A DNA stretch of 64,000 nucleotides from Naegleria gruberi (Eukaryota): assembly GCA_000004985.1 (NCBI GenBank), contig GG738925.1; one strand, 5' to 3'. The notes beneath the pieces are model-generated. The model saw only the letters and a program-made list of their open reading frames with translations, was not told where the DNA came from and did no database searches. The stretch's first letter is position 1, and the number at the start of each line of letters is the position of its first letter. Below, piece after piece: positions 1,060-52,394 of the stretch. A program made the translations under genes and the position numbers.

Positions 1060-4000
1060 NNNNNNNNNNNNNNNNNNNNNNNNNNNNNNNNNNNNNNNNN
1101 NNNNNNNNNNNNNNNNNNNNNNNNNNNNNNNNNNNNNNNNNNNNNNNNNNNNNNNNNNNNNNNNNNNNNNNNNNNNNNNNNNNNNNNNNNNNNNNNNNNN
1201 NNNNNNNNNNNNNNNNNNNNNNNNNNNNNNNNNNNNNNNNNNNNNNNNNNNNNNNNNNNNNNNNNNNNNNNNNNNNNNNNNNNNNNNNNNNNNNNNNNNN
1301 NNNNNNNNNNNNNNNNNNNNNNNNNNNNNNNNNNNNNNNNNNNNNNNNNNNNNNNNNNNNNNNNNNNNNNNNNNNNNNNNNNNNNNNNNNNNNNNNNNNN
1401 NNNNNNNNNNNNNNNNNNNNNNNNNNNNNNNNNNNNNNNNNNNNNNNNNNNNNNNNNNNNNNNNNNNNNNNNNNNNNNNNNNNNNNNNNNNNNNNNNNNN
1501 NNNNNNNNNNNNNNNNNNNNNNNNNNNNNNNNNNNNNNNNNNNNNNNNNNNNNNNNNNNNNNNNNNNNNNNNNNNNNNNNNNNNNNNNNNNNNNNNNNNN
1601 NNNNNNNNNNNNNNNNNNNNNNNNNNNNNNNNNNNNNNNNNNNNNNNNNNNNNNNNNNNNNNNNNNNNNNNNNNNNNNNNNNNNNNNNNNNNNNNNNNNN
1701 NNNNNNNNNNNNNNNNNNNNNNNNNNNNNNNNNNNNNNNNNNNNNNNNNNNNNNNNNNNNNNNNNNNNNNNNNNNNNNNNNNNNNNNNNNNNNNNNNNNN
1801 NNNNNNNNNNNNNNNNNNNNNNNNNNNNNNNNNNNNNNNNNNNNNNNNNNNNNNNNNNNNNNNNNNNNNNNNNNNNNNNNNNNNNNNNNNNNNNNNNNNN
1901 NNNNNNNNNNNNNNNNNNNNNNNNNNNNNNNNNNNNNNNNNNNNNNNNNNNNNNNNNNNNNNNNNNNNNNNNNNNNNNNNNNNNNNNNNNNNNNNNNNNN
2001 NNNNNNNNNNNNNNNNNNNNNNNNNNNNNNNNNNNNNNNNNNNNNNNNNNNNNNNNNNNNNNNNNNNNNNNNNNNNNNNNNNNNNNNNNNNNNNNNNNNN
2101 NNNNNNNNNNNNNNNNNNNNNNNNNNNNNNNNNNNNNNNNNNNNNNNNNNNNNNNNNNNNNNNNNNNNNNNNNNNNNNNNNNNNNNNNNNNNNNNNNNNN
2201 NNNNNNNNNNNNNNNNNNNNNNNNNNNNNNNNNNNNNNNNNNNNNNNNNNNNNNNNNNNNNNNNNNNNNNNNNNNNNNNNNNNNNNNNNNNNNNNNNNNN
2301 NNNNNNNNNNNNNNNNNNNNNNNNNNNNNNNNNNNNNNNNNNNNNNNNNNNNNNNNNNNNNNNNNNNNNNNNNNNNNNNNNNNNNNNNNNNNNNNNNNNN
2401 NNNNNNNNNNNNNNNNNNNNNNNNNNNNNNNNNNNNNNNNNNNNNNNNNNNNNNNNNNNNNNNNNNNNNNNNNNNNNNNNNNNNNNNNNNNNNNNNNNNN
2501 NNNNNNNNNNNNNNNNNNNNNNNNNNNNNNNNNNNNNNNNNNNNNNNNNNNNNNNNNNNNNNNNNNNNNNNNNNNNNNNNNNNNNNNNNNNNNNNNNNNN
2601 NNNNNNNNNNNNNNNNNNNNNNNNNNNNNNNNNNNNNNNNNNNNNNNNNNNNNNNNNNNNNNNNNNNNNNNNNNNNNNNNNNNNNNNNNNNNNNNNNNNN
2701 NNNNNNNNNNNNNNNNNNNNNNNNNNNNNNNNNNNNNNNNNNNNNNNNNNNNNNNNNNNNNNNNNNNNNNNNNNNNNNNNNNNNNNNNNNNNNNNNNNNN
2801 NNNNNNNNNNNNNNNNNNNNNNNNNNNNNNNNNNNNNNNNNNNNNNNNNNNNNNNNNNNNNNNNNNNNNNNNNNNNNNNNNNNNNNNNNNNNNNNNNNNN
2901 NNNNNNNNNNNNNNNNNNNNNNNNNNNNNNNNNNNNNNNNNNNNNNNNNNNNNNNNNNNNNNNNNNNNNNNNNNNNNNNNNNNNNNNNNNNNNNNNNNNN
3001 NNNNNNNNNNNNNNNNNNNNNNNNNNNNNNNNNNNNNNNNNNNNNNNNNNNNNNNNNNNNNNNNNNNNNNNNNNNNNNNNNNNNNNNNNNNNNNNNNNNN
3101 NNNNNNNNNNNNNNNNNNNNNNNNNNNNNNNNNNNNNNNNNNNNNNNNNNNNNNNNNNNNNNNNNNNNNNNNNNNNNNNNNNNNNNNNNNNNNNNNNNNN
3201 NNNNNNNNNNNNNNNNNNNNNNNNNNNNNNNNNNNNNNNNNNNNNNNNNNNNNNNNNNNNNNNNNNNNNNNNNNNNNNNNNNNNNNNNNNNNNNNNNNNN
3301 NNNNNNNNNNNNNNNNNNNNNNNNNNNNNNNNNNNNNNNNNNNNNNNNNNNNNNNNNNNNNNNNNNNNNNNNNNNNNNNNNNNNNNNNNNNNNNNNNNNN
3401 NNNNNNNNNNNNNNNNNNNNNNNNNNNNNNNNNNNNNNNNNNNNNNNNNNNNNNNNNNNNNNNNNNNNNNNNNNNNNNNNNNNNNNNNNNNNNNNNNNNN
3501 NNNNNNNNNNNNNNNNNNNNNNNNNNNNNNNNNNNNNNNNNNNNNNNNNNNNNNNNNNNNNNNNNNNNNNNNNNNNNNNNNNNNNNNNNNNNNNNNNNNN
3601 NNNNNNNNNNNNNNNNNNNNNNNNNNNNNNNNNNNNNNNNNNNNNNNNNNNNNNNNNNNNNNNNNNNNNNNNNNNNNNNNNNNNNNNNNNNNNNNNNNNN
3701 NNNNNNNNNNNNNNNNNNNNNNNNNNNNNNNNNNNNNNNNNNNNNNNNNNNNNNNNNNNNNNNNNNNNNNNNNNNNNNNNNNNNNNNNNNNNNNNNNNNN
3801 NNNNNNNNNNNNNNNNNNNNNNNNNNNNNNNNNNNNNNNNNNNNNNNNNNNNNNNNNNNNNNNNNNNNNNNNNNNNNNNNNNNNNNNNNNNNNNNNNNNN
3901 NNNNNNNNNNNNNNNNNNNNNNNNNNNNNNNNNNNNNNNNNNNNNNNNNNNNNNNNNNNNNNNNNNNNNNNNNNNNNNNNNNNNNNNNNNNNNNNNNNNN

Positions 4001-4971
4001 NNNNNNNNNNNNNNNNNNNNNNNNNNNNNNNNNNNNNNNNNNNNNNNNNNNNNNNNNNNNNNNNNNNNNNNNNNNNNNNNNNNNNNNNNNNNNNNNNNNN
4101 NNNNNNNNNNNNNNNNNNNNNNNNNNNNNNNNNNNNNNNNNNNNNNNNNNNNNNNNNNNNNNNNNNNNNNNNNNNNNNNNNNNNNNNNNNNNNNNNNNNN
4201 NNNNNNNNNNNNNNNNNNNNNNNNNNNNNNNNNNNNNNNNNNNNNNNNNNNNNNNNNNNNNNNNNNNNNNNNNNNNNNNNNNNNNNNNNNNNNNNNNNNN
4301 NNNNNNNNNNNNNNNNNNNNNNNNNNNNNNNNNNNNNNNNNNNNNNNNNNNNNNNNNNNNNNNNNNNNNNNNNNNNNNNNNNNNNNNNNNNNNNNNNNNN
4401 NNNNNNNNNNNNNNNNNNNNNNNNNNNNNNNNNNNNNNNNNNNNNNNNNNNNNNNNNNNNNNNNNNNNNNNNNNNNNNNNNNNNNNNNNNNNNNNNNNNN
4501 NNNNNNNNNNNNNNNNNNNNNNNNNNNNNNNNNNNNNNNNNNNNNNNNNNNNNNNNNNNNNNNNNNNNNNNNNNNNNNNNNNNNNNNNNNNNNNNNNNNN
4601 NNNNNNNNNNNNNNNNNNNNNNNNNNNNNNNNNNNNNNNNNNNNNNNNNNNNNNNNNNNNNNNNNNNNNNNNNNNNNNNNNNNNNNNNNNNNNNNNNNNN
4701 NNNNNNNNNNNNNNNNNNNNNNNNNNNNNNNNNNNNNNNNNNNNNNNNNNNNNNNNNNNNNNNNNNNNNNNNNNNNNNNNNNNNNNNNNNNNNNNNNNNN
4801 NNNNNNNNNNNNNNNNNNNNNNNNNNNNNNNNNNNNNNNNNNNNNNNNNNNNNNNNNNNNNNNNNNNNNNNNNNNNNNNNNNNNNNNNNNNNNNNNNNNN
4901 NNNNNNNNNNNNNNNNNNNNNNNNNNNNNNNNNNNNNNNNNNNNNNNNNNNNNNNNNNNNNNNNNNNNNNN
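1060..4971. other. Assembly gap (run of N, ~3.9 kb) in the subtelomere
   Basis: Continuous n characters. Tool ORFs 1017..4976 and 1054..5004 are artefacts of translating N. Confidence 0.99.
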
Positions 4972-5144
4972 GATAGACTATTACTTTTTTTAAAACTTTA
5001 CTAAAAAAACCAACAAAATACCCAAACGGCGCTTAATAACCCTATATCAGATCATAAAGACCATGGAGCCACAGAAGAAACAAATCAAAACAACACGTTT
5101 CCAAACCCAACCAAGTTAATAGCACAAAGAACGATGACTTCAAG

Positions 5145-6029
5145 ATGCCAAAGGTTGGAGGAGGATTCAAAAAACCACCTAACAAGTCTGGATTACCAGC
5201 AACAACAACAGTACCAGAGGACAACAAGTTTTTTGTTGAATTATTTGACGGTTTTATTGAAAAAAACAAATCGGATATTGTGGCAAAGATTGAGGAAGAG
5301 ATTGAAACTTTCAAGAAGAAGAAAGATGAATTGAAAAATATTATTGTAAAGAAGGAAAAGGGAGTGGATGATGAAGAACTGGACTTTTCAGAGAGTGAGG
5401 ATGAATCATCTGTCCAAATTATTGCGGAATACCATGCGGAAAAGAAGAATATCAATGAAGAATGCAAGAAGAATAAGAAGTTGAAAAACATCTCTCCTGT
5501 GGCAGAAAGGCAAGATGCTAAAATTGATGAAATTGGTAAACAGCTTGCCAAAGAAACAAAGAAAAGGAAGCGAGTGGATGAAGATTTTGTATGTGAGCCA
5601 CCAATTCTATCTGCAGCTGATGCATTGGATCCATCTAACATTTTGAATGAAAATGTTGACTCCCTCTTGAATGAGTTTTGTGATTTAGTTGATGCTGACT
5701 TGACAAAGTTAGATATTGGCATGACACAATCAAGCAATTTCCTTCGTTCAGTTGAAGATCGTGTCAAACAAGCAACTCAGCAATTGGATTCCCAAATCAT
5801 TGAATTAGAAAAATCGAGAGAGGAGATACTCAAAGAATTCGATAACAAATTGGAAGCTTTGAAATTCTCCAAGACTCAAACAGTTGGACCATATCTAGAA
5901 ATGGTTGAAACAAGCAAAAAGGTACTTGAAAAACAAACAACAAATTGCAAATTAAAAGCCCAAAAAGCATCAGCCAAAATCAAAGACAGAGTGCAAAGAT
6001 TCCTTGAGGATCCAATAAATGACCAATAA
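5145..6029 (+). CDS. Hypothetical K/E-rich coiled-coil protein (294 aa)
   Basis: Uninterrupted ORF with charged, coiled-coil-like composition. The antisense ORF 5042..5767 is low-complexity S/F mirror sequence and is rejected. No recognisable catalytic motif. Confidence 0.5.
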   Translation: MPKVGGGFKKPPNKSGLPATTTVPEDNKFFVELFDGFIEKNKSDIVAKIEEEIETFKKKKDELKNIIVKKEKGVDDEELDFSESEDESSVQIIAEYHAEKKNINEECKKNKKLKNISPVAERQDAKIDEIGKQLAKETKKRKRVDEDFVCEPPILSAADALDPSNILNENVDSLLNEFCDLVDADLTKLDIGMTQSSNFLRSVEDRVKQATQQLDSQIIELEKSREEILKEFDNKLEALKFSKTQTVGPYLEMVETSKKVLEKQTTNCKLKAQKASAKIKDRVQRFLEDPINDQ

Positions 6030-22951: not shown

Positions 22952-25900
22952 ATGACGATGAATAACATCAGACGAAATCATCATCATTACTACAGCAGTC
23001 AATATTGTTGGTGGAGAGAATCATCTCTGACTGTCATCTTTATACTGCTGCTGTCGAGTCTTGTACTGTTGAATGGACCAAGCACTCTCATCACTGCACA
23101 AAGACCTGGGCCATTCAATCCGAATAATCCGAGTGGACCTCCATCTCCTAATTTTCAAGATGATTCTACTCAACCACAAGGAATTTGTGCAAATGGCTCA
23201 ACAACATGGGATCAGGATATTTGTACGGAAACTAGTGAATTGTCGTCTCTTTCGATAAGACCTAGCTATTGTAAGAATATTAATCCCTATGTGATTCCGT
23301 ATCCTTTCAGTGATCATGAGTTTAGTGTCAAGTTGAGTCCTGATTGTTATGATTACAAAACTGGATTGAATTCAAATGATATTGAGAGAGCTGAGTGTGA
23401 AACAGTTAAATCAATCAGTTCTGTGGAGTTTGGACCTTTTGTTTTGCCTGATTTGAATGTTACAAGTAAGAGATTTTCATTGTTTGGAATGAATACTGGT
23501 GAAATCTATGCAATGGATTTTAACACGAATGAACTTTTCCAATTTGAAAATCAAACCAGTGACCCAATTAAGAAATTGGATGCCTTTGTGTTGGGATTGA
23601 ACAATACTGCAGCTTATATCATCTCTTCGGATGGTCAACACTCTTTAAAAGTTCTCTATTTTAACTATCTCAATAGAGAAACAAGTGCTCTATGTGAAAA
23701 AATTACCTATAACGAAAGTGTTGTGGATTTTAAGAGTTTGAATGTTGATGGACAATTATACTTGGTTGCTCTGACATCTTCCTCATTGGAATCTTCGACC
23801 AAATATCTTAAATTCTCAAAAATGGATGAATATTGCAATATTGTGATGAATGAATTTACTTATTCTATTCAACCTCCAAAAGGAAGCTCTAAAATTTCAT
23901 TTGACATTTTCACACAAGCTATCAACAATACTGCTTCCTATTCTCCTTCTATTTATACTAGATCTTCATCTATTCCAACCAGAAATATCATCTCTGTACA
24001 AACAGAACAATCAGTTTCAGTTATCAATTTTGTCACTAAAGATTTGAATCTTGACTTGCATAGTAATTCAACATCACCATACTTGGTTTTTACAACCAAT
24101 GCTGGCAGTGGTCAACACATTACCAGTAGTTCTTTCATCACAGAAGAATTGAGAAGAATTGATTTTGCTACCAATTCTTCAACAAGTTGTTCACTTTCTG
24201 AGGGAGAATTGAGATTCCCTTCACAAGAAGTTCACTTACTTGTTACTTTATTTGATGGAACAAACTCAACATTAATCGTTAGAAATTTACCTGAATTTTC
24301 AGCATTTACTCTCAAGAATTTATCTGATATGCTAACTAATGAACATCCATTCAATAGAGATTTTGCGTGTGATATTGCTGCTGGATATTACCAATCTGGA
24401 CCTAATACTTGTGTTTTGGCCAATGAATATAGTATTCCTTTGGAAGCAAAAGCTACTCAAGTTCACTCAAGATTCATTGATATTCCTGAACTTATTAAGG
24501 AGTATTTGGCTCAAGTTACAACAGAAAGCTCCAAGAATACAGAGCAGTTCAGAACAGCTGTTAACTTGTTGTGTATTGTTAGTGCTGGAGGTGATCCTAT
24601 GAATCCAAACAGACCATTCGATCCAAATAGATATATGGCCTGTGTACAAGCTTTGACAACAAGTATGGGAAGTGTCACTTGTCAAGCACAAGCATTTGGA
24701 GCTTTAGGAACTGAAAATCTCAGACAATTGATGAACGATTATTTGCAGTACAACGTTTTCATCACTATGGAGAATAATGCCTTGTTAGTTTTGGGAGTTC
24801 AACAAAGATTTTGTGATCCACTCTCAAAAGAACTTATCATTAAGCCTTTCAACAAGTTGCAACTCATTGGCAGAGCCATTAACACATACATTTCTGGCAA
24901 TGGTCAACATATCTTCATATCCATAACAAGGAAAAAATGGGAAATTGAATCATTAGCTAGATACAAGGAAATTTGTGATATGTTGGAAGAAGACCCAGAT
25001 AATATCTTCCTCAAAGATTATAGAACTTCGTGCATCAAAAATCCAGCCAAACCAATCAATATTAATACCTTTGGTTTCTACCTGTCAAGTTGCTTCCCTG
25101 GCATTTATTGTCCATCTTTGACAAAGAATGAATTGCAAGCAGTTCCTGACAAGTTTTACACTGAGAGACCAAATACACTCCTTCCATGTCCTATTGGCAG
25201 CTTTTGTACATTGGGTTTCAAGAGAGATTGTATCACTGGCTTTGTTTGTGATAAACCAATGATGGTTCTTCCAAAACCATGTACAGATAACGATTACAAT
25301 TGTTATGCTAGTGGATTGGCTGCTCCTTTTGCTCCTTCCAAGGGAACAGTAACTTTGGCTCCTTATTTCCCTACTCTTCCGATTGCTCCTGGATTGTACA
25401 TTGAGAGACATAGTGAAATTGATTTGGATATTAGAAAGTGCAGTGTTGGAGATTATTGTCCTTTAGCAAGAGCTCTTGATGTTCCAACATTTGGAACTGA
25501 GAATGTCAGTATTTTGGACTGTCCTGCTGGTACAGTCTGTTCAGATCCCTTTGTTATTACACCAAAAACTTGTTTTTACAATGGATCATACAGCAGCTAT
25601 TGTCCAACAGGAACTTCTGAAGAATTGCCTTGTCCAGCTGGACATTACTGTCTAGGACCTTCATCTATTAAGGAATGCAGAAGAACTCAGTACTGCCCTG
25701 CTGGTACTCTGATTCCAACTGCTTGTCCTGGTGGCTACTATTGTTCAACTCCTTCTGAAAAATTGATTTGTCCAAAAGGTCATTATTGTCCAGAAGGAAC
25801 TGTAATGCCTCATCCTTGTGGTTGGTTGTCTTTGTGTGGCGAAGGAAAATCCAATGTTGACTTTAATATTCTTGGTTTCTTCTTTGTTTTCATTTGTTTA

Positions 25901-28241
25901 ATGTTAGTTGTTGGTATTCACTCGCTCATTAAATATGTCAGATCTGTTAGTAATAAGAAACGTGATTTGGAACATCAAGAAGCTGCCATGTTGGAAATGA
26001 AGGAAATGTCAGGTGACAATACCAATTCTAAAGATGTAAGATCTGCCTATGCCTCCAAGAACTTGAGACAATCTTACGGAGATAGCAAATTTGGTGTCAA
26101 TATTGCTTTTGAGGACTTGTGTTTAACCATTGAACAATCTGGAAAGACAACTAACATTTTGAGTGGTGTCAGAGGAGAAATTAGAAACTCTGAATTGTTA
26201 GCAGTTATGGGTTGTTCAGGTTCTGGTAAGACCTCTTTCATCACATCTCTTTGTGGTAAAGCATACTATGGTAATGTAACTGGTACCATCAAACTGAATG
26301 GAAATGAAGCCAGTTTGACAAAGTTTAGAAAGTTGACTGGATTTGTGCCACAATTAGATATCATGCAAAGTCAAATGACTGTTTATGAAACATTGTACTT
26401 TGCTGCTCGAACTAGATTGGATAAGAGAAAGACCAATGAGCAAGTAGACAAATTTGTGTCAAGTTTAATTTCCATTCTTGGATTGGATGATGTCAAACAC
26501 TCTATTATTGGTGATGAAAAGAAGAGAGGTATATCAGGAGGTCAAAAGAAGAGAGTGAATATTGGTCTTGAACTTGCAGCAGCTCCTAGTGTTTTATTTT
26601 GTAAGTATTTTGTTTCTTCCTTTCTTAAATTTGAATCTTTAATAATATAACAGTGGATGAACCAACTAGTGGATGTAAGTATTTAACAATGCTATTTGAC
26701 AGTTTTTCTAATTGTAATTACAGTGGACGCTTCTACATCAAGAGAAATTATTGAAATTCTTAGAAATGTTGCTGTTAATCAACACATTACAGTTGTAACA
26801 GTTATCCATCAACCTAGATATGAAATATTTGCCATGTTCCACAAGGTCATGTTGCTAGGAAAGGGAGGCAGAGTTGTCTATTGTGGTCCAAGCATTAAAG
26901 CTGTGGAATATTTTGAGAGTATTGGATTCAAATCTCTTCCAAATGCTAATCCTGCTGATTATATTATGGATGTTATTTCTGGAAATATTGAAAGAGAAGG
27001 TGATCCTGATTTTAAGGTTGAAGATTTGTTTACCATGTGGGAAGATCACAGACATTTGTATGAAGAAGATTCCGCATTGCTTTCACCATCAAGTGCTACC
27101 TCTCCAATTATTGAGAGGGAAGATGCTGATTCTGTGGAAAATTCTGAATTAAGCGGACCTACCAGTGTTGATTGTTCCTATGAAGTATTTAAGAAGGAGA
27201 ATGACAATAGAAAGATCAGTTACTTTACTCAATTCATGATGTGTTTGAAGAGATGTCTCTTCCAACTCACTAGAGACACTTCTGGATTTGTTTTGGATGT
27301 TGGTTTGGTTTACTTGGCAGGTCTCAGTATTGGTGTTATTTTCTATGAAAGTAGATATATTGGACCACCAGCAACCGAAGTGATTGATCAATGTCCTGAA
27401 GTAATGAGATACAAATGTTCCCTTCCAGTTAATGATCCAATCATGACTATGGCATCTATTCTTGGCTTAGGTTTGGCACTTTGTGGATTGATGAGCTCGC
27501 TGAGTAATTTTGGAGATGAAATCACAGTATTTATCAGAGAGTACGAAAGTAATATATCTCCAATGATGTACTTCTTGGCAAAGAATCTGATTCAAATTCC
27601 AATCATTATGATTACACCAGCAATCTTCATTTCCATCTTTTATATTATCAGTAACCCTCAAGGAGAGGTTTGGCAATAGTAAGTAACATTCAAATAGTAA
27701 TATGAACAACTTTAACAAATCAATTAATAGCTATGTTATTTTGATGAGTACAAACTTTGTGAGTTATGGAATTGGTTATCTATTATCACTAATCTTCCCT
27801 GCTTCATTAAGTAAGGTGGCTGGAGTAGTGTTTGTTGTGATTAATTATCTAGTTTCAGGTATTAGACCAACAATGAGTGAAATGGATGACATGTTCTTCC
27901 CAATGCCTTACATTTATTCCCTCTCCTTTTTGAGATATTCTACAGAAGCTCTCTATTTGACAGAAGTGAAGAAATATTCTCAAGTGTATGATGTAAATTC
28001 AGGTTTAGATTTAATGGGCTATGCCTTCAAGAATTTCCCTCGAATGGCCATAACTATTCCACTATTTGGTATCATCTATAGAATTTTAGCTTGTATTGCT
28101 CTTTTAATATTGCCTCCTTCATCACTAGTGAGACGAGTTGTAGGAAAGGTCATTGATTACAAGTCTCACATTGCCAAGATCAAGAAACTGATTGTCAGGA
28201 AAAAGCAACGTGATCATGAACAATTGAGCATTAATTATTGA
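22952..28241 (+). CDS. ABCG-type half transporter with ~930-aa N-terminal Cys-rich ectodomain; 4 exons: 22952..26600, 26654..26674, 26724..27678, 27731..28241 (1711 aa)
   Basis: Signal peptide LTVIFILLLSSLVLLNGPSTLITAQ. The membrane-proximal ectodomain carries repeated CP(A/T/K/G)G..YC motifs (CPAGTVC, CPTGTSEELPCPAGHYC, CPAGTLIPTACPGGYYC, CPKGHYCPEGTVMPHPC) of GCC2/GCC3 (ephrin-receptor-like) type. TM ILGFFFVFICLMLVVGIH. NBD with Walker A GCSGSGKTS, signature ISGGQKKRVNIG and Walker B VLF|LDEPTSG|LD. The Walker B/D-loop heptapeptide lies on a 21-nt micro-exon between introns of 53 and 49 nt (GTAAGT..ACAG/TACAG). The TMD carries about six TM segments after a third 52-nt intron. All junctions checked for phase against the tool ORFs. 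Confidence 0.8.
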
Positions 28242-43541: not shown

Positions 43542-44348
43542 TTAATCACTTTCATCAGAGCTTGAATCAGAGTCATCGGATGTATCATCTGATGAAGTAT
43601 CACTATCACTCGAATCAGAATCATCACTGGCACTTGAATCATCTAGAGCTGCTTTAGCATCAATCTCTCCTGGTTTTTGTCCTAAACCCATTGGACGCGG
43701 AGGTAAATGTTGTGTTGTGGCCATGGACATCATGGAAATTGGTTGTTGTTGTTGTTGTTGAGACATAACAATTGGAGGAAGAATAGTTTCTTCCTTTCTC
43801 TTCTTTGAAATTGGTCCATCAATATCCAAATTATTAGGAGGTGGTGTAACTTTCTTTGGTGGAGTCGTTTGTTTTGGTTGACCTAACAATTGAACTGACC
43901 GATTCGATGGCACAATAGTTTCTGTAATTCCAGCTGTTTTGAGCTTTCCAGTGGAAGAACTGTGAGCAAGTGAAGGAGGTGGATTACTCGTGTCCACAAG
44001 ATTTGTAAAACCTGTTGTTGCCTTCAACTTTTCCAATCTAAATGTCCCACTATATCTATCATAAATTAATACACATTCATGTACATTGGATTTGTTATTT
44101 GGTACGTAGGATCCCTTGAAAACAAACTTGGAGTTTGCTGTCAGTGTTGCTGGAGAGGCTGATGTGTAACTGTCGACAACACTCGAGTCAATATCAAAGC
44201 TTCCTTCCCAATTGTTTTCCTTTAATGTTTTTGGTTTGAAATTAAAGAAGAGTGAGTGATATTCAGTATTAGAGGATGATGTATTGTTATTGGAAATTGT
44301 TTCTCCAACTTCAATTTTGTATTCAGTGTCCTTTTGTAAATTATCCAT
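43542..44348 (-). CDS. EAF (ELL-associated factor) family protein, 268 aa
   Basis: N-terminal YKIEVGE..FNFKPKT..FVFKGSYVPNNKSNVHECVLIYDRYSGTFRLEKL parallels the EAF1/2 N-terminal domain (..FKP..FKGN..DCVLIINHDTGEYVLEKL). The C-terminus is a Ser/Asp-rich acidic tail (SDDSDSSDSDTSSDD), as in EAF proteins. Confidence 0.65.
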   Translation of the reverse strand: MDNLQKDTEYKIEVGETISNNNTSSSNTEYHSLFFNFKPKTLKENNWEGSFDIDSSVVDSYTSASPATLTANSKFVFKGSYVPNNKSNVHECVLIYDRYSGTFRLEKLKATTGFTNLVDTSNPPPSLAHSSSTGKLKTAGITETIVPSNRSVQLLGQPKQTTPPKKVTPPPNNLDIDGPISKKRKEETILPPIVMSQQQQQQPISMMSMATTQHLPPRPMGLGQKPGEIDAKAALDDSSASDDSDSSDSDTSSDDTSDDSDSSSDESD

Positions 44349-45235
44349 CTAGATGATCGCCAAATTAATTTGCTCTTCTTTTTCAATTTGTATTAAATAT
44401 TACAATAAGTATCTTCTCTTTGTCAATAATTATCAAATTATATCAAATTATAATAAAAAAATGATGATCACGAGATGATCTGTGATGGTTGACGATCTAT
44501 TTTTTTGATTTTGAAAAATTTAAAAATAAGAAAAATATTTGAAAATAGCCAAAGTTTTGAAGGAAAAACAACATGAAAGTAATCAGAGGTTTGACAAATC
44601 GAATGTAAAATGTAATTGCCAATAACAACCAATGACTCTACTTCCTATTGTGATATCTAACCAATAGGTGGATTCTCGAGTCATTAATTTCAGTTATTTT
44701 CCAGTAATTTAACTCAACGACCAAGAAACGAAATTTTCTCAATTCTTCACTTGACGATTCCTGATCGAGAATGCATCAAATAGTTACTGATTTTGCAATT
44801 TGAAAACTTCAAGCTTATTAGACGTCATCCTTCTCTATGTGTGATTGGTATCAAATGATGAGCTGAAAACTATTCGAAAGGTTCTTAATCTCGCAATGTG
44901 GAAAGAAATTATAGAAAATCGGTAGCGAAAGAACAAAAACAGCAACCTCAATACGAATGCCCTATCAAGTTGAAACAGTTGACATTTGTTGACAGTACAC
45001 AAGCGACTTGTTATTGAAAATAAGCTTGTCACAATTAAATTCATCAATTTGACATTTCATAAAAAATTGTGTCAATATTAAAGTGTTTAGACTATTAACT
45101 TTCATCCATTTCAGTATTGCTAATTTTACCACAACACAATTTTCCACTAGGTTTAATTTTACTTTCGTCTATTTTCGAGACGAATCAATCAGCTTCAAAC
45201 TTTAAAAACTAATCCATCATCTCATCGTCATCATC

Positions 45236-48026
45236 ATGACAGAACCAACAGTTTCTAATACACCATTAGATTCGAATAGATTCGGTATGTCATCCACAAC
45301 TACTTCTCAACCTCCACCATTAGCACTTCAATCCAATAACAGCAACATCATGAATAATAGTAATAGCAATAATAATAATAACTATAGTCAACATGTTTCT
45401 AATAATTTCATCCAACTTTCAGAACAACAACAAACAAATTCGGGAAATCAAAATATTGGGATTCTCGATATTCTCAGTGGAGGTGGTGGAAATCAACAGT
45501 TAAAAGGAAGTTCTATTCCATTCTCTTCTTCAAATAATAATAATCAAACAGTACCAATTTCATCATCAAATTCTATTCGAAATTTGTAAGTTTAGTTTCG
45601 GATAACATTTTTCATAGACCAAACAATAATTTAATTATTATTACAATTAACATTTGAATAATAGAAATCCATCTGCTAGAAAATCCCTCCCTTCCACTTC
45701 TACTCTCTCTCCCTATCACATACAATCGTCCAATTTAAACGATTCGTCCTTTTCACCTCGTTTCGCCAGACAATTCTCTCAACCACCACTTTCCTTTGTA
45801 AATGAACAAGATGCCTCCAATATGATGATGGGAAATAACGAAGAATTATCAGGTGGAGAAGAGGAATTAGAAATGACACCTCAACAAGCTAAAACTAACG
45901 ACCAACAAAATGGTCAACCAACTTCTTCTAATGGTAGTGGAAATAGTAGAAGAATGAATTATGCATGTACAGAATGTAGAAAAGCACACAAAGCTTGTAC
46001 TGGAGAAAGGTTTGTTATTTGCTAATTGATATCAATTTTGTTTACATGTGATTCGTCAACTTTCATTTTATTGTTGCGACCATGTGCGCTCGTCATCCTT
46101 TTATATTTATGTATTGTGGTAATATGGAATGACAATGTGTGAATTTAAATGTACCATCTTTGGACAACTGCTTTCATTGCTAATATTTTACAATTTTTCT
46201 GAATTTTTCACAAATTCACTTTTCAATGAATCTTCAAATTCCCTTAATTATTAATAATAATAATAATATTGAAATAATTTAATAGACCTTGTGATAGATG
46301 TAAAAAATTGGGAATGGAAGACAAGTGCAAGAGTACCATTCGTAAAAAACGTATTCTCACCAAGAGATATTGGGTTCATTTCATGTCCAACGATGGCAGT
46401 AATAATACCAACTCAATGATGGATGATAGTAGTGCTGGGGATCAATCACCAGCAAGTATTCATCAGCAAGCTTTCTTTCCTAATGTAGGTGCTGGTGGAC
46501 CACAAATGGGAAATGCTAGAAATGCCTCAATGAATTTCAAGAGACACTCTAGTGCTAATTTACCATCCTTCTCATCTATTAAGAGATTGAATCAAGGATT
46601 GAGCGGAGGCAGTTCAAATAGTATGAGCTCATTCCAAGGTAGTGAAATAATGTCAACAAGTGACGCTTCAATGCTCAATCCAAATGAATATAATAACATG
46701 TACAGTGGTGATCGTTCTCCAAGACAAGTTCCTCACTCTTACAATTATCATCCCTATAAGAGTCCACGTGGTCAGCATCCAGAGCAAGTAATGGATCAAT
46801 CCTCTCCAAATCAAACTCTTCAAAACAACAATGGTATGAATCCAAATAGTGGCTTTAGTCCTAGAAATAGTTTTAATAGAGCTGCCTCATCATCTCAAAT
46901 TCCAACTCCATTGCAACAACAGCAACAAAATGGGAGTTATGGCTTCTCTGGAAATGTTGCATCATTGGATGCCTATCGATTGGATGGAAAGATACCAACT
47001 GGTAATTCAAATACCAATTCTGTGGAATCCTCTCCAAGAGAGAGTGGAGTTTTGAATCATTTGAATATGAGTACATTTAACAATTCTATTGGATCTCAAT
47101 TGGATCCACAAACTGTAAATAGACATTACAATAGAGGAAGTATGAGAATTCAACCACTTTTCAATCAGCATACCAAATCCTTGTCAGATACCAACTTGTT
47201 ACCATCACCTTCCATGTTATTGGATCATCAACGACAACAATCCATGTTTAATTTCCCATCTCATCAACAAACCAATAATACTAATGGTAATATTAATAAT
47301 AACAGCATGGCAATGGATGAATTTTCAAATGGTAATAATCAGAATAGTCATCAACATCATAATTTACACATTCCTCCAATCATGCTTGAAAAGAATCCAA
47401 ATATTCCACAATTTACCATTCAACCATCTCCAAATCACTCAAACAATTCCAATTCCAATACACCAAGAAGTGGCATATTCTTTGAAAACTCTCCTCGAAG
47501 TGGCAATAATATGGGAAGTGGTGAATACTATTACTCTCCTCGAAGTGAAGTGGACTACTCTTCCGACATGTCCTCTCTCACTAACAGTCCACGTTTTGGA
47601 ACTGGTGGAGGAGCTGATTCCAACTCCAGCACTCCACGTAGTTTGATAGGAAGTATGAATACCATGTCCATCAATGATTCCTCACCTCTCGCTCAACAAT
47701 TATCTGCTCAGCAGCAATATCCACCTGGATATAGAGGAAGCTTACATTATGACTCTCCCTCATTGATGGTTCCTGGTAATAGAAAGTCAGTGGCTGGATA
47801 CTTGAATCAGGCAGGTAATAGATTTAGTTTGGGGTCGGCTTACCATGGATCTGCCTATGTACAACAGCAGCAGCAACAGCAATCGAATGGTCTCTCACTT
47901 CCAAATTCTACTTCTCCCTCCACATCCACAACAACATACACCAATCATCCAGGAAATAGGTATAGTTTAGGACCTAATCAGGATTTATATCAATACTCTA
48001 CGAGGTCTAACAATTTTAGAAAATAA
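45236..48026 (+). CDS. Zn(II)2Cys6 (GAL4-type) binuclear-cluster transcription factor, 3 exons (45236..45585, 45665..46009, 46286..48026; ~812 aa)
   Basis: Exon 1 is N/S/Q-rich and ends at GTAAGT. A 79-nt intron ends aatag. Exon 2 ends ..NYACTECRKAHKACTGE|R at AG|GTTTGT. A 276-nt intron ends aatag, and exon 3 starts PCDRCKKLGMEDKC. The spliced product has C-x2-C-x6-C-x5-C-x2-C-x8-C, matching the Zn2Cys6 spacing exactly. The rest is low complexity (N/Q/S runs). Both junction phases were checked against tool ORFs 45654..46025 and 46308..48026. Confidence 0.75.
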
Positions 48027-48704
48027 TATTGACTATAGGATTGATATTGAATCATCAGCATTTTCATTATATTGTAAATATATTTTCAATTTGAATCAAA
48101 TTTTCATCATTTATTTTTTTATTGAAAATTAATTATTTAATAATTGAAGGATATTATTAATATTATTTAATTAGTAATAATTGATTATTCATCATTCTCA
48201 ATTGACCGAATGTATAAACATCATTAAGCAATACTAAGCAATCAGGGAACATGATAATTGGAACAGTGAAATATCGGATGGAAGCATTGTTGTACATGCA
48301 GTGCATTCCTAAATCAATTCGTAAATTCGATTTAATTGGCAAGTCTATTTGCTGTTTCAACCATTCCATCTCTTTCACTTACTATCTATCAACAAGCAAC
48401 TGCTTTTCAATTTTCATTATCAGACATCTCTAAAAGTTATCAGTCCATTCATTACCTGAAATCTCCTTCAATGCACATTTGAACGTGTCTGGAAATGGCG
48501 CCAAAACATCTTCATACAAGCAGTTACAGCAGTTGCAGTTCAAATTTGGTGAAACGATAACCCGCCAAAATTTATTGTAGTTTTTCCGCCAAAAATGTTT
48601 TGTTTACAAATCGTACTCAAAAATACAAACAAGCAATAATCCTTAAAGCCTGGCATGATCTGGCTTTTGCCTCAAAACAAAAAAAAATATAACAAAACCC
48701 CTAA

Positions 48705-50069
<1,365 letters not shown>

Positions 50070-51620: not shown

Positions 51621-51935
51621 ACATTGATTTTGAGTAATGAATAGCTGTACCCAAACCATTTTACAAGTATTAAATTTTTCCAATAATCACCTTTTAATTC
51701 AAAACCATTAAGAGTCAAATTGCATTCAATTCACGAACAACAAGTTAAAATTCAGTATTGCATGTACTTACTAAACATGAACCAATTTTGTGTCCAGAAA
51801 CAAAAATCGGTTCATCGAAAGAATTTCTTTGCAGAAGAACTACTTTCTAAAAATATATAACTCTCAAACAGTTTAAAGCAAGGAACTGTTTTGAATTCAA
51901 GAAAAACCATTAAGAAAAACAGGACAACAAACATA

Positions 51936-52394
51936 ATGCAATTATTTGTCAAGACACTCACTGGAAGAACTATCACTTTGGAGGTTGAATCTAATGATTC
52001 AATTGAAAATGTGAAAAGAAAAGTGCAAGATAAGGAAGGAATTTCACCAGATCAACAAAGACTCATCTTTGCTGGAAAACAATTGGAAGATGGCAGAACT
52101 ATTAATGATTACAACATTCAAAAAGATTCAACTCTTCATTTGGTGTTGAGATTAAGAGGAGGAATGCAACTTTTTGTAAAAACTTTAACTGGAAAGACAA
52201 TCACTATTGAAATGGAATCGAATGATACTGTTGAGAATATGAAACAAAAGATATTTGATAAGGAAGGTATTCCTTCAGATCAACAACGATTGATTTATGC
52301 CGGTAAGCAATTGGAAGATGGAAGAACTATTGGTGATTACAATCTTCAAAAGGATTCAACTGTGCATTTAGTATTGAGATTGAGAGGTGGTTAA
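51936..52394 (+). CDS. Divergent di-ubiquitin (two head-to-tail ubiquitin-like repeats of 76 aa ending RGG-stop), 152 aa
   Basis: Repeat 1 is [76 protein letters not shown]. Repeat 2 is [76 protein letters not shown]. Start set at the ATG in acataATG context; the tool ORF opens 15 codons earlier. Confidence 0.85.

What the first reader, a model, noticed from the sequence alone, without database searches (positions are those of the whole stretch)
45236..48026. GAL4-type Zn2Cys6 transcription factor outside fungi, with the zinc cluster split by a 276-nt intron
The spliced product has exact C-x2-C-x6-C-x5-C-x2-C-x8-C spacing, but only after removing an intron five times longer than any other in the window. 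That intron sits between Cys3 and Cys4. Zn2Cys6 factors are largely fungal, with a minority in amoebozoans. The predicted protein is otherwise N/Q/S-rich. The long intron may hold a regulatory or ncRNA element.
Basis: partly seen in the sequence, partly recalled or inferred. Interest (0 to 1): 0.55.

Follow-up and report, generated by a model that had tools for sequence, protein, structure and literature searches.

The report
Ordinary Naegleria zinc-cluster factor, ordinary intron
This is the already-annotated Naegleria gruberi gene NAEGRDRAFT_75488, one of about 78 "fungal-type" Zn2Cys6 transcription factors in that amoeba, and the 276-base intron that splits its zinc cluster looks like an ordinary intron with no sign of a hidden RNA or regulatory element.

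Summary
Splicing 45236-45585 / 45665-46009 / 46286-48026 gives an 811-aa protein with CTECRKAHKACTGERPCDRCKKLGMEDKC, the exact Zn2Cys6 spacing. It scores above the Pfam PF00172 gathering cut-off. The 276-nt GT..AG intron lies between Cys3 and Cys4.

The protein is 100% identical to the annotated N. gruberi protein XP_002669518.1 (NAEGRDRAFT_75488). So the organism is a heterolobosean, not a fungus or an amoebozoan.

This is not new. Herman et al. 2021 (PMC8296547, Table S3) list Zn_clus as the largest transcription-factor family in Naegleria, with 78 genes in N. gruberi and 56-58 in N. fowleri. The N. fowleri ortholog of this gene is in that table.

The intron sits at the same codon and phase in five Naegleria-type lineages, with lengths of 276, 220, 214, 95 and 89 nt. 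Two more distant homologs have no intron there.

The N. gruberi intron shows no sequence similarity to the others. It has no Rfam or tRNA hit, no excess folding energy, no repeats and no ORF. It is about 3.5 times the gene's other intron and about 1.4 times the published genome mean of 203 bp.

Verdict: a real, known gene with an ordinary intron at a conserved position. Interest is low.

The parts
45236..45585 (+). Exon 1 (ATG at 45236). N/S/Q-rich N-terminal region, including the conserved island GILDILS.
   Evidence: The GSILDILS island is conserved in N. lovaniensis, N. fowleri and Willaertia orthologs.
45586..45664 (+). Intron 1: 79 nt, GTAAGT..AATAG, 20% GC.
   Evidence: The annotated orthologs have an 80-nt (N. 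lovaniensis) and an 81-nt (N. fowleri) first intron.
45665..46009 (+). Exon 2. Ends with the first half of the zinc cluster and the first two bases (AG) of the Arg231 codon.
   Evidence: The FSPRFxRQFSQPP island is conserved in N. lovaniensis and N. fowleri.
45966..45998 (+). Codons for Cys1-x2-Cys2-x6-Cys3 (CTECRKAHKAC, aa 218-228).
   Evidence: Invariant in six homologs. PUT3-like CRKxHxKC.
46010..46285 (+). Intron 2: 276 nt, GTTTGT..AATAG, phase 2, 26% GC. It splits the cluster between Cys3 and Cys4.
   Evidence: Same position and phase in five lineages, at 276/220/214/95/89 nt. No Rfam or tRNA hit. Fold z-scores +0.13 and -0.42. No alignable conservation for the N. gruberi intron. No repeats.
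46252..46268 (+). (TAA)5.7 microsatellite inside intron 2.
46286..48026 (+). Exon 3. Holds the second half of the cluster, a basic extension, and a long low-complexity C-terminal region with conserved short islands and [ST]PR motifs. Stop codon TAA at 48024-48026.
46290..46331 (+). Codons for Cys4-x2-Cys5-x8-Cys6 (CDRCKKLGMEDKC, aa 233-246).
46344..46376 (+). Basic extension RKKRILTKRYW (aa 251-261), five residues after Cys6. It is the most conserved stretch of the protein outside the cluster.
   Evidence: Invariant or near-invariant in all homologs. Aligns with the RKKR that follows the cluster in S. pombe Pho7, PDB 6o19/6e33.

Best explanation
The region is the annotated Naegleria gruberi gene NAEGRDRAFT_75488. 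It is a three-exon gene for an 811-aa sequence-specific transcription factor with a single Zn2Cys6 binuclear zinc-cluster DNA-binding domain.

**Shown**
- The six-Cys cluster is present, with a Pfam match above the gathering cut-off.
- The gene structure is conserved.
- The gene belongs to a Naegleria/Willaertia orthogroup.

**Inferred**
- The cluster binds two Zn(II) ions and reads CGG-like triplets in the major groove, as PUT3, Gal4 and Pho7 do. The Cys2-Cys3 segment CRKAHKAC resembles PUT3 CRKRHIKC.
- The invariant basic tail RKKRILTKRYW after Cys6 adds backbone contacts and/or acts as a nuclear localisation signal, as in the monomeric binder Pho7.
- The long N/Q/S-rich tails act as activation or interaction regions. 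They carry conserved short motifs and 10 [ST]PR sites that are probable proline-directed phosphorylation sites.

**The intron**
- The 276-nt interruption is an ordinary U2-type spliceosomal intron.
- It has occupied the same phase-2 position, in the Arg codon of GER|PC, since before the sampled Naegleria lineages diverged.
- Its sequence and length drift freely. It must be removed to make a functional DNA-binding domain, because retention gives a stop after 4 codons.
For: - **Identity.** 100% identity over 811 aa to XP_002669518.1.
- **Domain.** PF00172 scores 23.1 bits, above the gathering score of 21. The best PDB sequence matches are Zn2Cys6 DNA-binding domains: PUT3 1ajy (E 0.0035), Pho7 6o19/6e33, then Cep3, AlcR and HAP1.
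- **Fold.** The AlphaFold model has short helices starting at each C-x2-C. Its only Foldseek PDB hit is the HAP1 DNA-binding domain 1pyc, at rmsd 1.9 A over 31 columns. Both are weak evidence: pLDDT is 55 and E is 1.1.
- **Orthologs.** N. lovaniensis, N. fowleri, two environmental Naegleria-like contigs and Willaertia share the cluster, the basic tail and C-terminal islands. Beta-tubulin lies downstream in three of these loci, as it does in the window.
- **Gene structure.** Independent annotations of N. lovaniensis and N. fowleri use the same two-intron structure: 80+220 nt and 81+214 nt.
- **Intron position.** It is identical in five lineages while length ranges from 89 to 276 nt.
- **Published context.** Zn_clus is the largest TF family in Naegleria (78 in N. 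gruberi). N. fowleri gene g4595, isoforms t1-t3, all keep the intact cluster. Mean intron length in N. gruberi is 203 bp.
- **Negative tests on the intron.**
Against: - I could obtain no N. gruberi transcript spanning the 46009/46286 junction. A degenerate spliced-junction pattern found nothing in metagenome contigs.
- The Pfam score is only 2 bits above threshold, and the structure model has low confidence.
- No coiled-coil dimerisation element or fungal middle-homology region was detected. The binding mode (monomer or dimer) and the target site are therefore guesses.
- The three long introns share the rare hexamers TGTGCG and TGCGAC. P is about 0.005 by shuffling, but the test is post hoc and two of the species are sisters. 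A very small cis element is not excluded.
Confidence: 0.9

Rival explanations
1. The long intron hosts a functional element, such as an intronic ncRNA, an snoRNA or an enhancer, and that explains its extra length in N. gruberi.
For: - It is the longest intron I could recognise locally. It is also the longest in the syntenic N. lovaniensis and N. fowleri loci, at 220 and 214 nt against 118 nt or less of total intron per neighbouring gene.
- The rare CG-containing hexamers TGTGCG and TGCGAC are present in all three long introns, and CGTGCG is present in a fourth.
Against: - No Rfam family matches inside the intron, even at E<=10. There is no tRNA.
- Folding energy is indistinguishable from shuffles on both strands.
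- The N. gruberi intron does not align to any orthologous intron (z<=1.6). Only the sister pair N. lovaniensis/N. fowleri keeps residual similarity, z 4.1.
- Two lineages manage with 89-95 nt at the same site.
- The genome-wide mean intron length is 203 bp.
- The hexamer sharing is post hoc, and the motif positions are not fixed relative to either splice site.
Confidence: 0.05
2. Splicing of this intron that splits the DNA-binding domain is regulated. Intron retention or the in-frame acceptor 12 nt downstream would act as an on/off switch for a functional DNA-binding domain. Alternatively, an internal start at the conserved Met of LGMEDKC would give an isoform without the domain.
For: - Retention gives a stop after 4 codons.
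- An in-frame alternative acceptor at 46297/46298 would delete PCDR, including Cys4.
- The intron position has been kept in five lineages.
- The 5' splice site GTTTGT differs from the GTAAGT/GTATGT seen in the orthologs.
Against: - There are no transcript data.
- The N. lovaniensis and N. fowleri exon 3 sequences begin ACCTTGTGAC rather than ACCTTGTGAT, so whether the alternative acceptor TGATAG exists there is unchecked.
- All three N. fowleri isoforms listed keep the intact cluster.
- Conservation of intron position alone is normal for neutral introns.
Confidence: 0.04
3. The two parts are separate genes, or the upstream part is a pseudo-exon, and the matching cysteine spacing is coincidental.
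For: Prokaryote-style gene callers on environmental contigs call the two sides as separate ORFs: P0004, P0005, P0009 and P0011.
Against: - Each half alone has only three Cys and cannot form the cluster.
- Both halves are invariant, and GT..AG boundaries lie in the same codon and phase in five lineages.
- Two distant homologs encode the whole cluster in one uninterrupted ORF.
- Three independent eukaryotic annotations join the halves.
- Only one GT..AG pair restores the cluster.
Confidence: 0.01

Closest known systems
Naegleria Zn_clus transcription-factor family (Herman et al. 2021, BMC Biol, PMC8296547, Table S3). Direct orthologs: N. fowleri FDP41_013604 / Nfowleri986_g4595 and N. lovaniensis C9374_013439.
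   Same: - Same DNA-binding domain, differing at two positions (Thr/Ser after Cys3; Thr-Ile vs Ser-Val after Cys6), and the same basic tail.
- Same C-terminal motif islands.
- Same two-intron structure, with the second intron in the same codon.
- Same downstream beta-tubulin neighbour.
   Different: - Overall identity is only 37-48%, because the low-complexity regions diverge.
- Intron 2 is 276 nt here against 214-220 nt.
- The upstream neighbour differs: an EAF-domain gene here, a BTB gene in the other two species.
Fungal Zn2Cys6 DNA-binding domains with solved structures: PUT3 (1ajy, 1zme), S. pombe Pho7 (6o19, 6e33), HAP1/CYP1 (1pyc), Gal4.
   Same: - Six-Cys spacing within the canonical C-x2-C-x6-C-x5-12-C-x2-C-x6-8-C.
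- Pro before Cys4.
- Basic residues between Cys2 and Cys3 (CRKAHKAC against PUT3 CRKRHIKC).
- RKKR after Cys6, as in Pho7.
   Different: - No recognisable linker plus coiled-coil dimerisation element.
- No fungal middle-homology domain (PF04082 or PF11951) in the Pfam scan.
- The cluster lies at aa 218-246 rather than at the extreme N-terminus.
- The rest of the protein is N/Q/S-rich low complexity.
Amoebozoan zinc-cluster factors: 22 in Acanthamoeba castellanii and 3 in Dictyostelium discoideum (Clarke et al. 2013, PMC4053784).
   Same: They are non-fungal eukaryotes carrying the same DNA-binding domain family.
   Different: They belong to a different supergroup. Naegleria has far more copies (78), and there the family is the most numerous TF class. 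No orthology to this gene was tested.
Intronless heterolobosean-like homologs P0007 (JGI 3300062135) and P0008 (GCA_016850925.1 contig JAESGV010006110.1).
   Same: The cluster plus the RKKRxLTKKYW tail is 64-70% identical, and these proteins have even denser [ST]PR repeats, 17-18 each.
   Different: Each is a single uninterrupted ORF with no intron in the cluster. They are shorter (487-496 aa), and their genomic neighbours are different.

Membership tests
Zn2Cys6 binuclear zinc cluster (Gal4-type; Pfam PF00172 Zn_clus) | Six cysteines spaced C-x2-C-x6-C-x5-12-C-x2-C-x6-8-C | tested here: met
   CTECRKAHKACTGERPCDRCKKLGMEDKC has spacing 2/6/5/2/8, at aa 218-246 of the spliced product. All six Cys are invariant in six homologs.
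Zn2Cys6 binuclear zinc cluster (Gal4-type; Pfam PF00172 Zn_clus) | Profile match at or above the curated gathering score | tested here: met
   23.1 bits against a cut-off of 21, E 8.2e-5, covering profile positions 1-38 of 39. The margin is small.
Zn2Cys6 binuclear zinc cluster (Gal4-type; Pfam PF00172 Zn_clus) | Sequence similarity to experimentally solved Zn2Cys6 domains | tested here: met
   Top PDB hits are PUT3 (E 0.0035), Pho7 (0.0073 and 0.011) and PUT3 1zme (0.017). Cep3, AlcR and HAP1 follow at weaker E-values.
Zn2Cys6 binuclear zinc cluster (Gal4-type; Pfam PF00172 Zn_clus) | Fold: two short helices, each starting at a C-x2-C, packed around two metal ions | tested here: inconclusive
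   The AlphaFold model from a 6-sequence alignment has helices at residues 15-20 and 31-36, which are the two C-x2-C sites, but mean pLDDT is 55.5. The only Foldseek PDB hit is the HAP1 DNA-binding domain 1pyc, at E 1.1 and rmsd 1.9 A over 31 columns.
Zn2Cys6 binuclear zinc cluster (Gal4-type; Pfam PF00172 Zn_clus) | Binds two Zn(II) ions and sequence-specific DNA (CGG-type sites) | not testable with these tools
   This needs metal analysis and EMSA, PBM or DAP-seq on aa 205-270.
Canonical fungal Gal4-like architecture | Linker plus coiled-coil dimerisation element after the cluster | tested here: inconclusive
   No coiled-coil predictor was available. By eye no heptad region follows the cluster. 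The model shows only one 10-residue helix, at fragment residues 54-63.
Canonical fungal Gal4-like architecture | Middle homology region (Fungal_trans PF04082 or Fungal_trans_2 PF11951) | tested here: not met
   The Pfam scan of the full protein at E<=1 returned only PF00172.
Naegleria orthogroup of NAEGRDRAFT_75488 | Shared DNA-binding domain plus RKKRILTKRYW tail, shared C-terminal islands, shared intron position and shared synteny | tested here: met
Intron-hosted ncRNA (snoRNA, miRNA or other Rfam family) | Covariance-model match, stable structure or cross-species conservation within the intron | tested here: not met
   No Rfam hit lies in 46010-46285 at E<=10. Fold z-scores are +0.13 and -0.42. 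Alignment z-scores for the N. gruberi intron against the other four are at most 1.6.

The most novel reading that the evidence does not exclude
The intron position in the loop between the two Cys3 half-motifs has been kept in every sampled Naegleria lineage because it is used. One possibility is a splicing-dependent switch for producing a functional DNA-binding domain, through retention or the 12-nt-downstream acceptor that removes Cys4. Another is that it carries a very short conserved cis element (GTGCG core) that controls the gene.
Probability: 0.05. Interest if true: 0.4.

Novelty: already known. Interest (0 to 1): 0.1.

Why it matters
It matters little as a discovery.

- The gene model is in RefSeq.
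- The orthologs are labelled Zn(2)-C6 in UniProt.
- The expansion of zinc-cluster factors in Naegleria is published.

The useful result is the correction. 'Fungal-type' zinc clusters are not an oddity in this genome but its largest transcription-factor family. The intron that splits the cluster is a lineage-conserved, otherwise unremarkable intron.

If anyone studies Naegleria transcription, this orthogroup is a tidy candidate for DNA-binding assays. It has an invariant DNA-binding domain with a basic tail, dense [ST]PR motifs, and conserved adjacency to a beta-tubulin gene.

Tried and rejected
- **Literature searches.** Naegleria paired with Zn2Cys6, binuclear cluster, Gal4 or Zn_clus found nothing relevant. 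'Zinc cluster' found only the Acanthamoeba genome paper. Zn2Cys6 with Dictyostelium gave only fungal papers.
- **Papers not held.** de Mendoza 2013, Iyer 2008 and Fritz-Laylin 2010 are not in the library. I therefore could not cite the N. gruberi median intron length or the earlier TF surveys.
- **N. gruberi annotation.** It is not in the contig look-up, so I could not list all annotated introns of the window.
- **Spliced-junction search.** A degenerate pattern found nothing in metagenome contigs, so there is no direct transcript evidence.
- **More orthologous loci.** The search for related loci in metagenomes only re-found L006.
- **Domain-only homology search.** It was under-powered for a 68-aa profile against 5.8 billion proteins and gave 5 hits. 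These included ORF fragments that read into the intron on genomic contigs.
- **Willaertia genomic DNA.** It could not be fetched, so intron presence there is unknown. The two Willaertia isoforms differ only by 19 N-terminal residues.
- **Structure prediction.** Confidence was low, so the fold search is only suggestive.
- **Crude intron scan.** My scan merged two ~50-nt introns and a micro-exon into a false 102-nt intron. I corrected this. Several long 'introns' in that list are probably intergenic joins.
- **snoRNA idea.** I looked by eye for C/D boxes. N. fowleri has several TGATGA motifs, but there is no conserved C/D pair across species, so I rejected it.
Full report
**What is in the sequence.** The window is AT-rich eukaryotic DNA of about 33% GC, with an assembly gap at 2001-4000. 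Joining 45236-45585, 45665-46009 and 46286-48026 on the + strand gives a 2436-nt CDS and an 811-aa product. The product contains CTECRKAHKACTGERPCDRCKKLGMEDKC at aa 218-246, which is exactly C-x2-C-x6-C-x5-C-x2-C-x8-C.

Both introns are GT..AG. Intron 1 is 79 nt and 20% GC. Intron 2 is 276 nt and 26% GC. Intron 2 is phase 2, inside the Arg codon (AG|A) of G-E-R|P-C, so it lies between Cys3 and Cys4. Read unspliced, the frame stops after GERFVIC, and every frame has stops in the intron. Among all in-frame, stop-free GT..AG combinations nearby, only 46009/46286 rebuilds a six-cysteine cluster. An acceptor 12 nt downstream would stay in frame but remove P-C-D-R, including Cys4.

**Is it a Zn2Cys6 domain?** Pfam PF00172 (Zn_clus) matches aa 216-254 at 23.1 bits, against a gathering score of 21, and covers profile positions 1-38 of 39. 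Nothing else in Pfam matches the protein at E<=1. A sequence search of the PDB with aa 205-269 puts Zn2Cys6 DNA-binding domains at the top: PUT3, S. pombe Pho7, then Cep3, AlcR and HAP1. The Cys2-Cys3 segment CRKAHKAC resembles PUT3 CRKRHIKC. The RKKR after Cys6 aligns with the RKKR of Pho7.

An AlphaFold model from a shallow 6-sequence alignment has low confidence (pLDDT 55.5). It does place short helices at both C-x2-C sites. Its only Foldseek hit in the PDB is the HAP1 zinc-cluster domain, which is not significant at E 1.1. I accept membership of the DNA-binding domain family on spacing, profile score and PDB similarity. The fold test is inconclusive. Metal and DNA binding are untestable here.

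**Whose gene is it?** The 811-aa product is 100% identical over its full length to 'predicted protein [Naegleria gruberi]' = XP_002669518.1 / EFC36774.1 / NAEGRDRAFT_75488 / UniProt D2W277. The organism is a heterolobosean amoeboflagellate.

Orthologs were found in the following:
- N. lovaniensis (995 aa)
- N. fowleri (976 aa; UniProt name 'Zn(2)-C6 fungal-type domain-containing protein')
- Willaertia magna (638 or 657 aa)
- two environmental Naegleria-like contigs
- two shorter, more distant homologs, P0007 and P0008

The alignment shows an invariant DNA-binding domain followed by an invariant basic tail RKKRILTKRYW. Further conserved islands sit in an otherwise low-complexity protein: YHPYKSPR, GL(D/E)AYKLD, KSLSDxNLLPPPS, HIPPIML, YSPRSD..SSLTNSPRFG..NSSTPRGLIGSM, RKSxAGYLNxAGNRFSLGS and NHPxNRYSLGPNQ(D/E)LY.

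**Is a zinc-cluster factor in this organism surprising?** No. Herman et al. 2021 (BMC Biol 19:142, PMC8296547) scanned Naegleria proteomes with 81 DNA-binding-domain models. They report Zn_clus as the top family: 78 in N. gruberi and 56-58 in three N. fowleri strains, ahead of Myb (38-41) and RWP-RK (26-39). N. gruberi has about 243 TFs in total. The N. fowleri ortholog of this gene, Nfowleri986_g4595 (isoforms t1-t3), is listed there with the domain YACTECRKAHKACSGERPCDRCKKLGMEDKC... at aa 270-309. Outside fungi the family is also recorded in Amoebozoa, with 22 in Acanthamoeba and 3 in Dictyostelium (PMC4053784). The 'outside fungi' point is therefore true but already known.

**The intron.** I fetched the orthologous DNA and located the two half-clusters. 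In all five lineages a GT..AG intron interrupts the same Arg codon in the same phase. The lengths are 276 nt (window), 220 nt (N. lovaniensis), 214 nt (N. fowleri), 95 nt (Logan SRR15442818) and 89 nt (JGI 3300002220).

Reconstructing the annotated N. lovaniensis and N. fowleri models reproduces their proteins exactly, with two introns of 80+220 nt and 81+214 nt. These species therefore have the same two-intron structure as the window gene. The two distant homologs P0007 and P0008 are single uninterrupted ORFs. The intron is therefore specific to the Naegleria-type lineage, or was lost elsewhere, and is not a feature of the domain family.

**Does the intron carry anything?** Every test was negative.
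- Rfam at E<=10 over 45000-48300 gives eight chance-level hits, none inside the intron.
- ARAGORN finds nothing.
- RNA folding energy equals that of dinucleotide shuffles on both strands, with z +0.13 and -0.42.
- The five introns do not align beyond the splice sites.
- In pairwise global alignments against shuffles, the N. gruberi intron scores z<=1.6 against every other intron. Only the sister species N. lovaniensis and N. fowleri retain residual similarity, z 4.1.
- BLAST of the intron against the whole window finds only AAT-type low-complexity matches.
- There are no direct or inverted repeats, and only a (TAA)5.7 microsatellite.
- ORFs in the intron are at most 41 aa.

One small residue remains. 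The rare hexamers TGTGCG and TGCGAC occur in all three long introns, as TGTGCGAC in N. lovaniensis and N. fowleri, and CGTGCG occurs in the JGI intron. A shuffle test gives P of about 0.005. The test is post hoc, two of the species are not independent, and the motif positions are not fixed relative to either splice site. I record it as a weak lead.

**Is the length exceptional?** Locally it is the longest intron I can recognise, but not by five-fold. The gene's own first intron is 79 nt, a 3.5-fold difference. Other credible introns in the window are about 40-82 nt. The Zn-cluster intron is also the longest in the syntenic N. lovaniensis and N. fowleri loci. Genome-wide, the published mean intron length is 203 bp in N. 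gruberi and 126-144 bp in N. fowleri (PMC8296547 Table 2). On that scale 276 nt is unremarkable.

**How it most likely works.**
- Shown: the gene encodes a protein with one Zn2Cys6 cluster, and the cluster exists only in the spliced mRNA.
- Inferred from the family: the cluster binds two zinc ions and recognises CGG-like triplets. The invariant basic tail provides extra DNA contacts and/or nuclear import, as in Pho7. The N/Q/S-rich regions serve activation or interaction.
- Inferred from motif counts: the 10 [ST]PR motifs are probable proline-directed phosphorylation sites. About 0.6 are expected by composition, and every homolog is enriched, with 7-18 each.
- Not found: a coiled-coil or a fungal middle-homology domain. 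Oligomeric state and targets are unknown.
- The intron behaves as a neutral spliceosomal intron fixed at an old position. It lies in the loop between the two Cys3 half-motifs. Because distant homologs lack it, this is more likely a coincidental insertion site than a relic of domain assembly.

**What is missing.** I have no N. gruberi transcript evidence. The spliced-junction pattern was absent from metagenome contigs, and the ENA and JGI fragments that read into the intron are genomic. The support for splicing is comparative: five lineages, three independent annotations, N. fowleri isoforms and intronless homologs. It is strong but indirect.

**Verdict.** This is a known gene from a known, published family expansion, with an ordinary intron.

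Noticed in passing
window 46286-48026 (exon 3); proteins P0001-P0008: All eight homologs carry 7-18 [ST]-P-R tripeptides each, against about 0.5 expected from composition (maximum 3-5 in 1000 shuffles). Several lie in conserved islands: YHPYKSPR, YSPRSD, SLTNSPRFG and NSSTPRGLIGSM. They are probably proline-directed phosphorylation sites or a binding motif.
   Followed up: partly
window 48714-50069 (+): An intronless canonical beta-tubulin gene lies 688 nt downstream of the transcription-factor gene (PDB beta-tubulin hits at E about 1e-293). The adjacency of this factor and tubulin is conserved in N. lovaniensis (L001), N. fowleri (L002) and the Logan contig L003. The upstream neighbour is not conserved: an EAF-domain gene at 43542-44348 here, a BTB gene in the other two species.
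   Followed up: partly
window 26601-26723 (+): In the ABC-transporter gene (about 22952-27679) the Walker-B motif (L)DEPTSG(L) is encoded by a 21-nt micro-exon at 26653-26673. It is flanked by two ~50-nt GTAAGT..ACAG introns, 26601-26652 and 26674-26723.
   Followed up: partly
window 46075-46088; L001 about 4983-4990; L002 about 5087-5094: The rare CG-containing hexamers TGCGAC and TGTGCG occur in all three long orthologous introns, as one 8-mer TGTGCGAC in N. lovaniensis and N. fowleri, and CGTGCG occurs in the 89-nt JGI intron. Each hexamer occurs only 2-3 times in the whole 64-kb window counting both strands. The shuffle P is about 0.005, but the test is post hoc.
   Followed up: partly
window 46286-46298: An in-frame alternative acceptor (TGATAG|) lies 12 nt downstream of the annotated one. 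Using it would delete Pro-Cys-Asp-Arg, including Cys4, and so inactivate the cluster. N. lovaniensis and N. fowleri read ...TGTGAC rather than ...TGTGAT at the first 10 nt of exon 3 that I inspected. Whether the alternative acceptor exists there is unchecked.
   Followed up: no
window 51891-52394 (+): A polyubiquitin ORF with two or more ubiquitin repeats (Pfam PF00240, E 2.6e-60).
   Followed up: no
window 2001-4000: A run without G or C calls (GC 0.000), which is presumably an N-filled assembly gap. The flanking 1-2000 and 4001-6000 are unusually AT-rich (17-18% GC).
   Followed up: no
L008 (ENA ERZ929261 metagenome contig, 1163 nt): An environmental contig is 98.8% identical to window 44926-46099, including intron 1 and the first 90 nt of intron 2. 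A very close N. gruberi relative is therefore present in that metagenome (PRJEB11402).
   Followed up: yes
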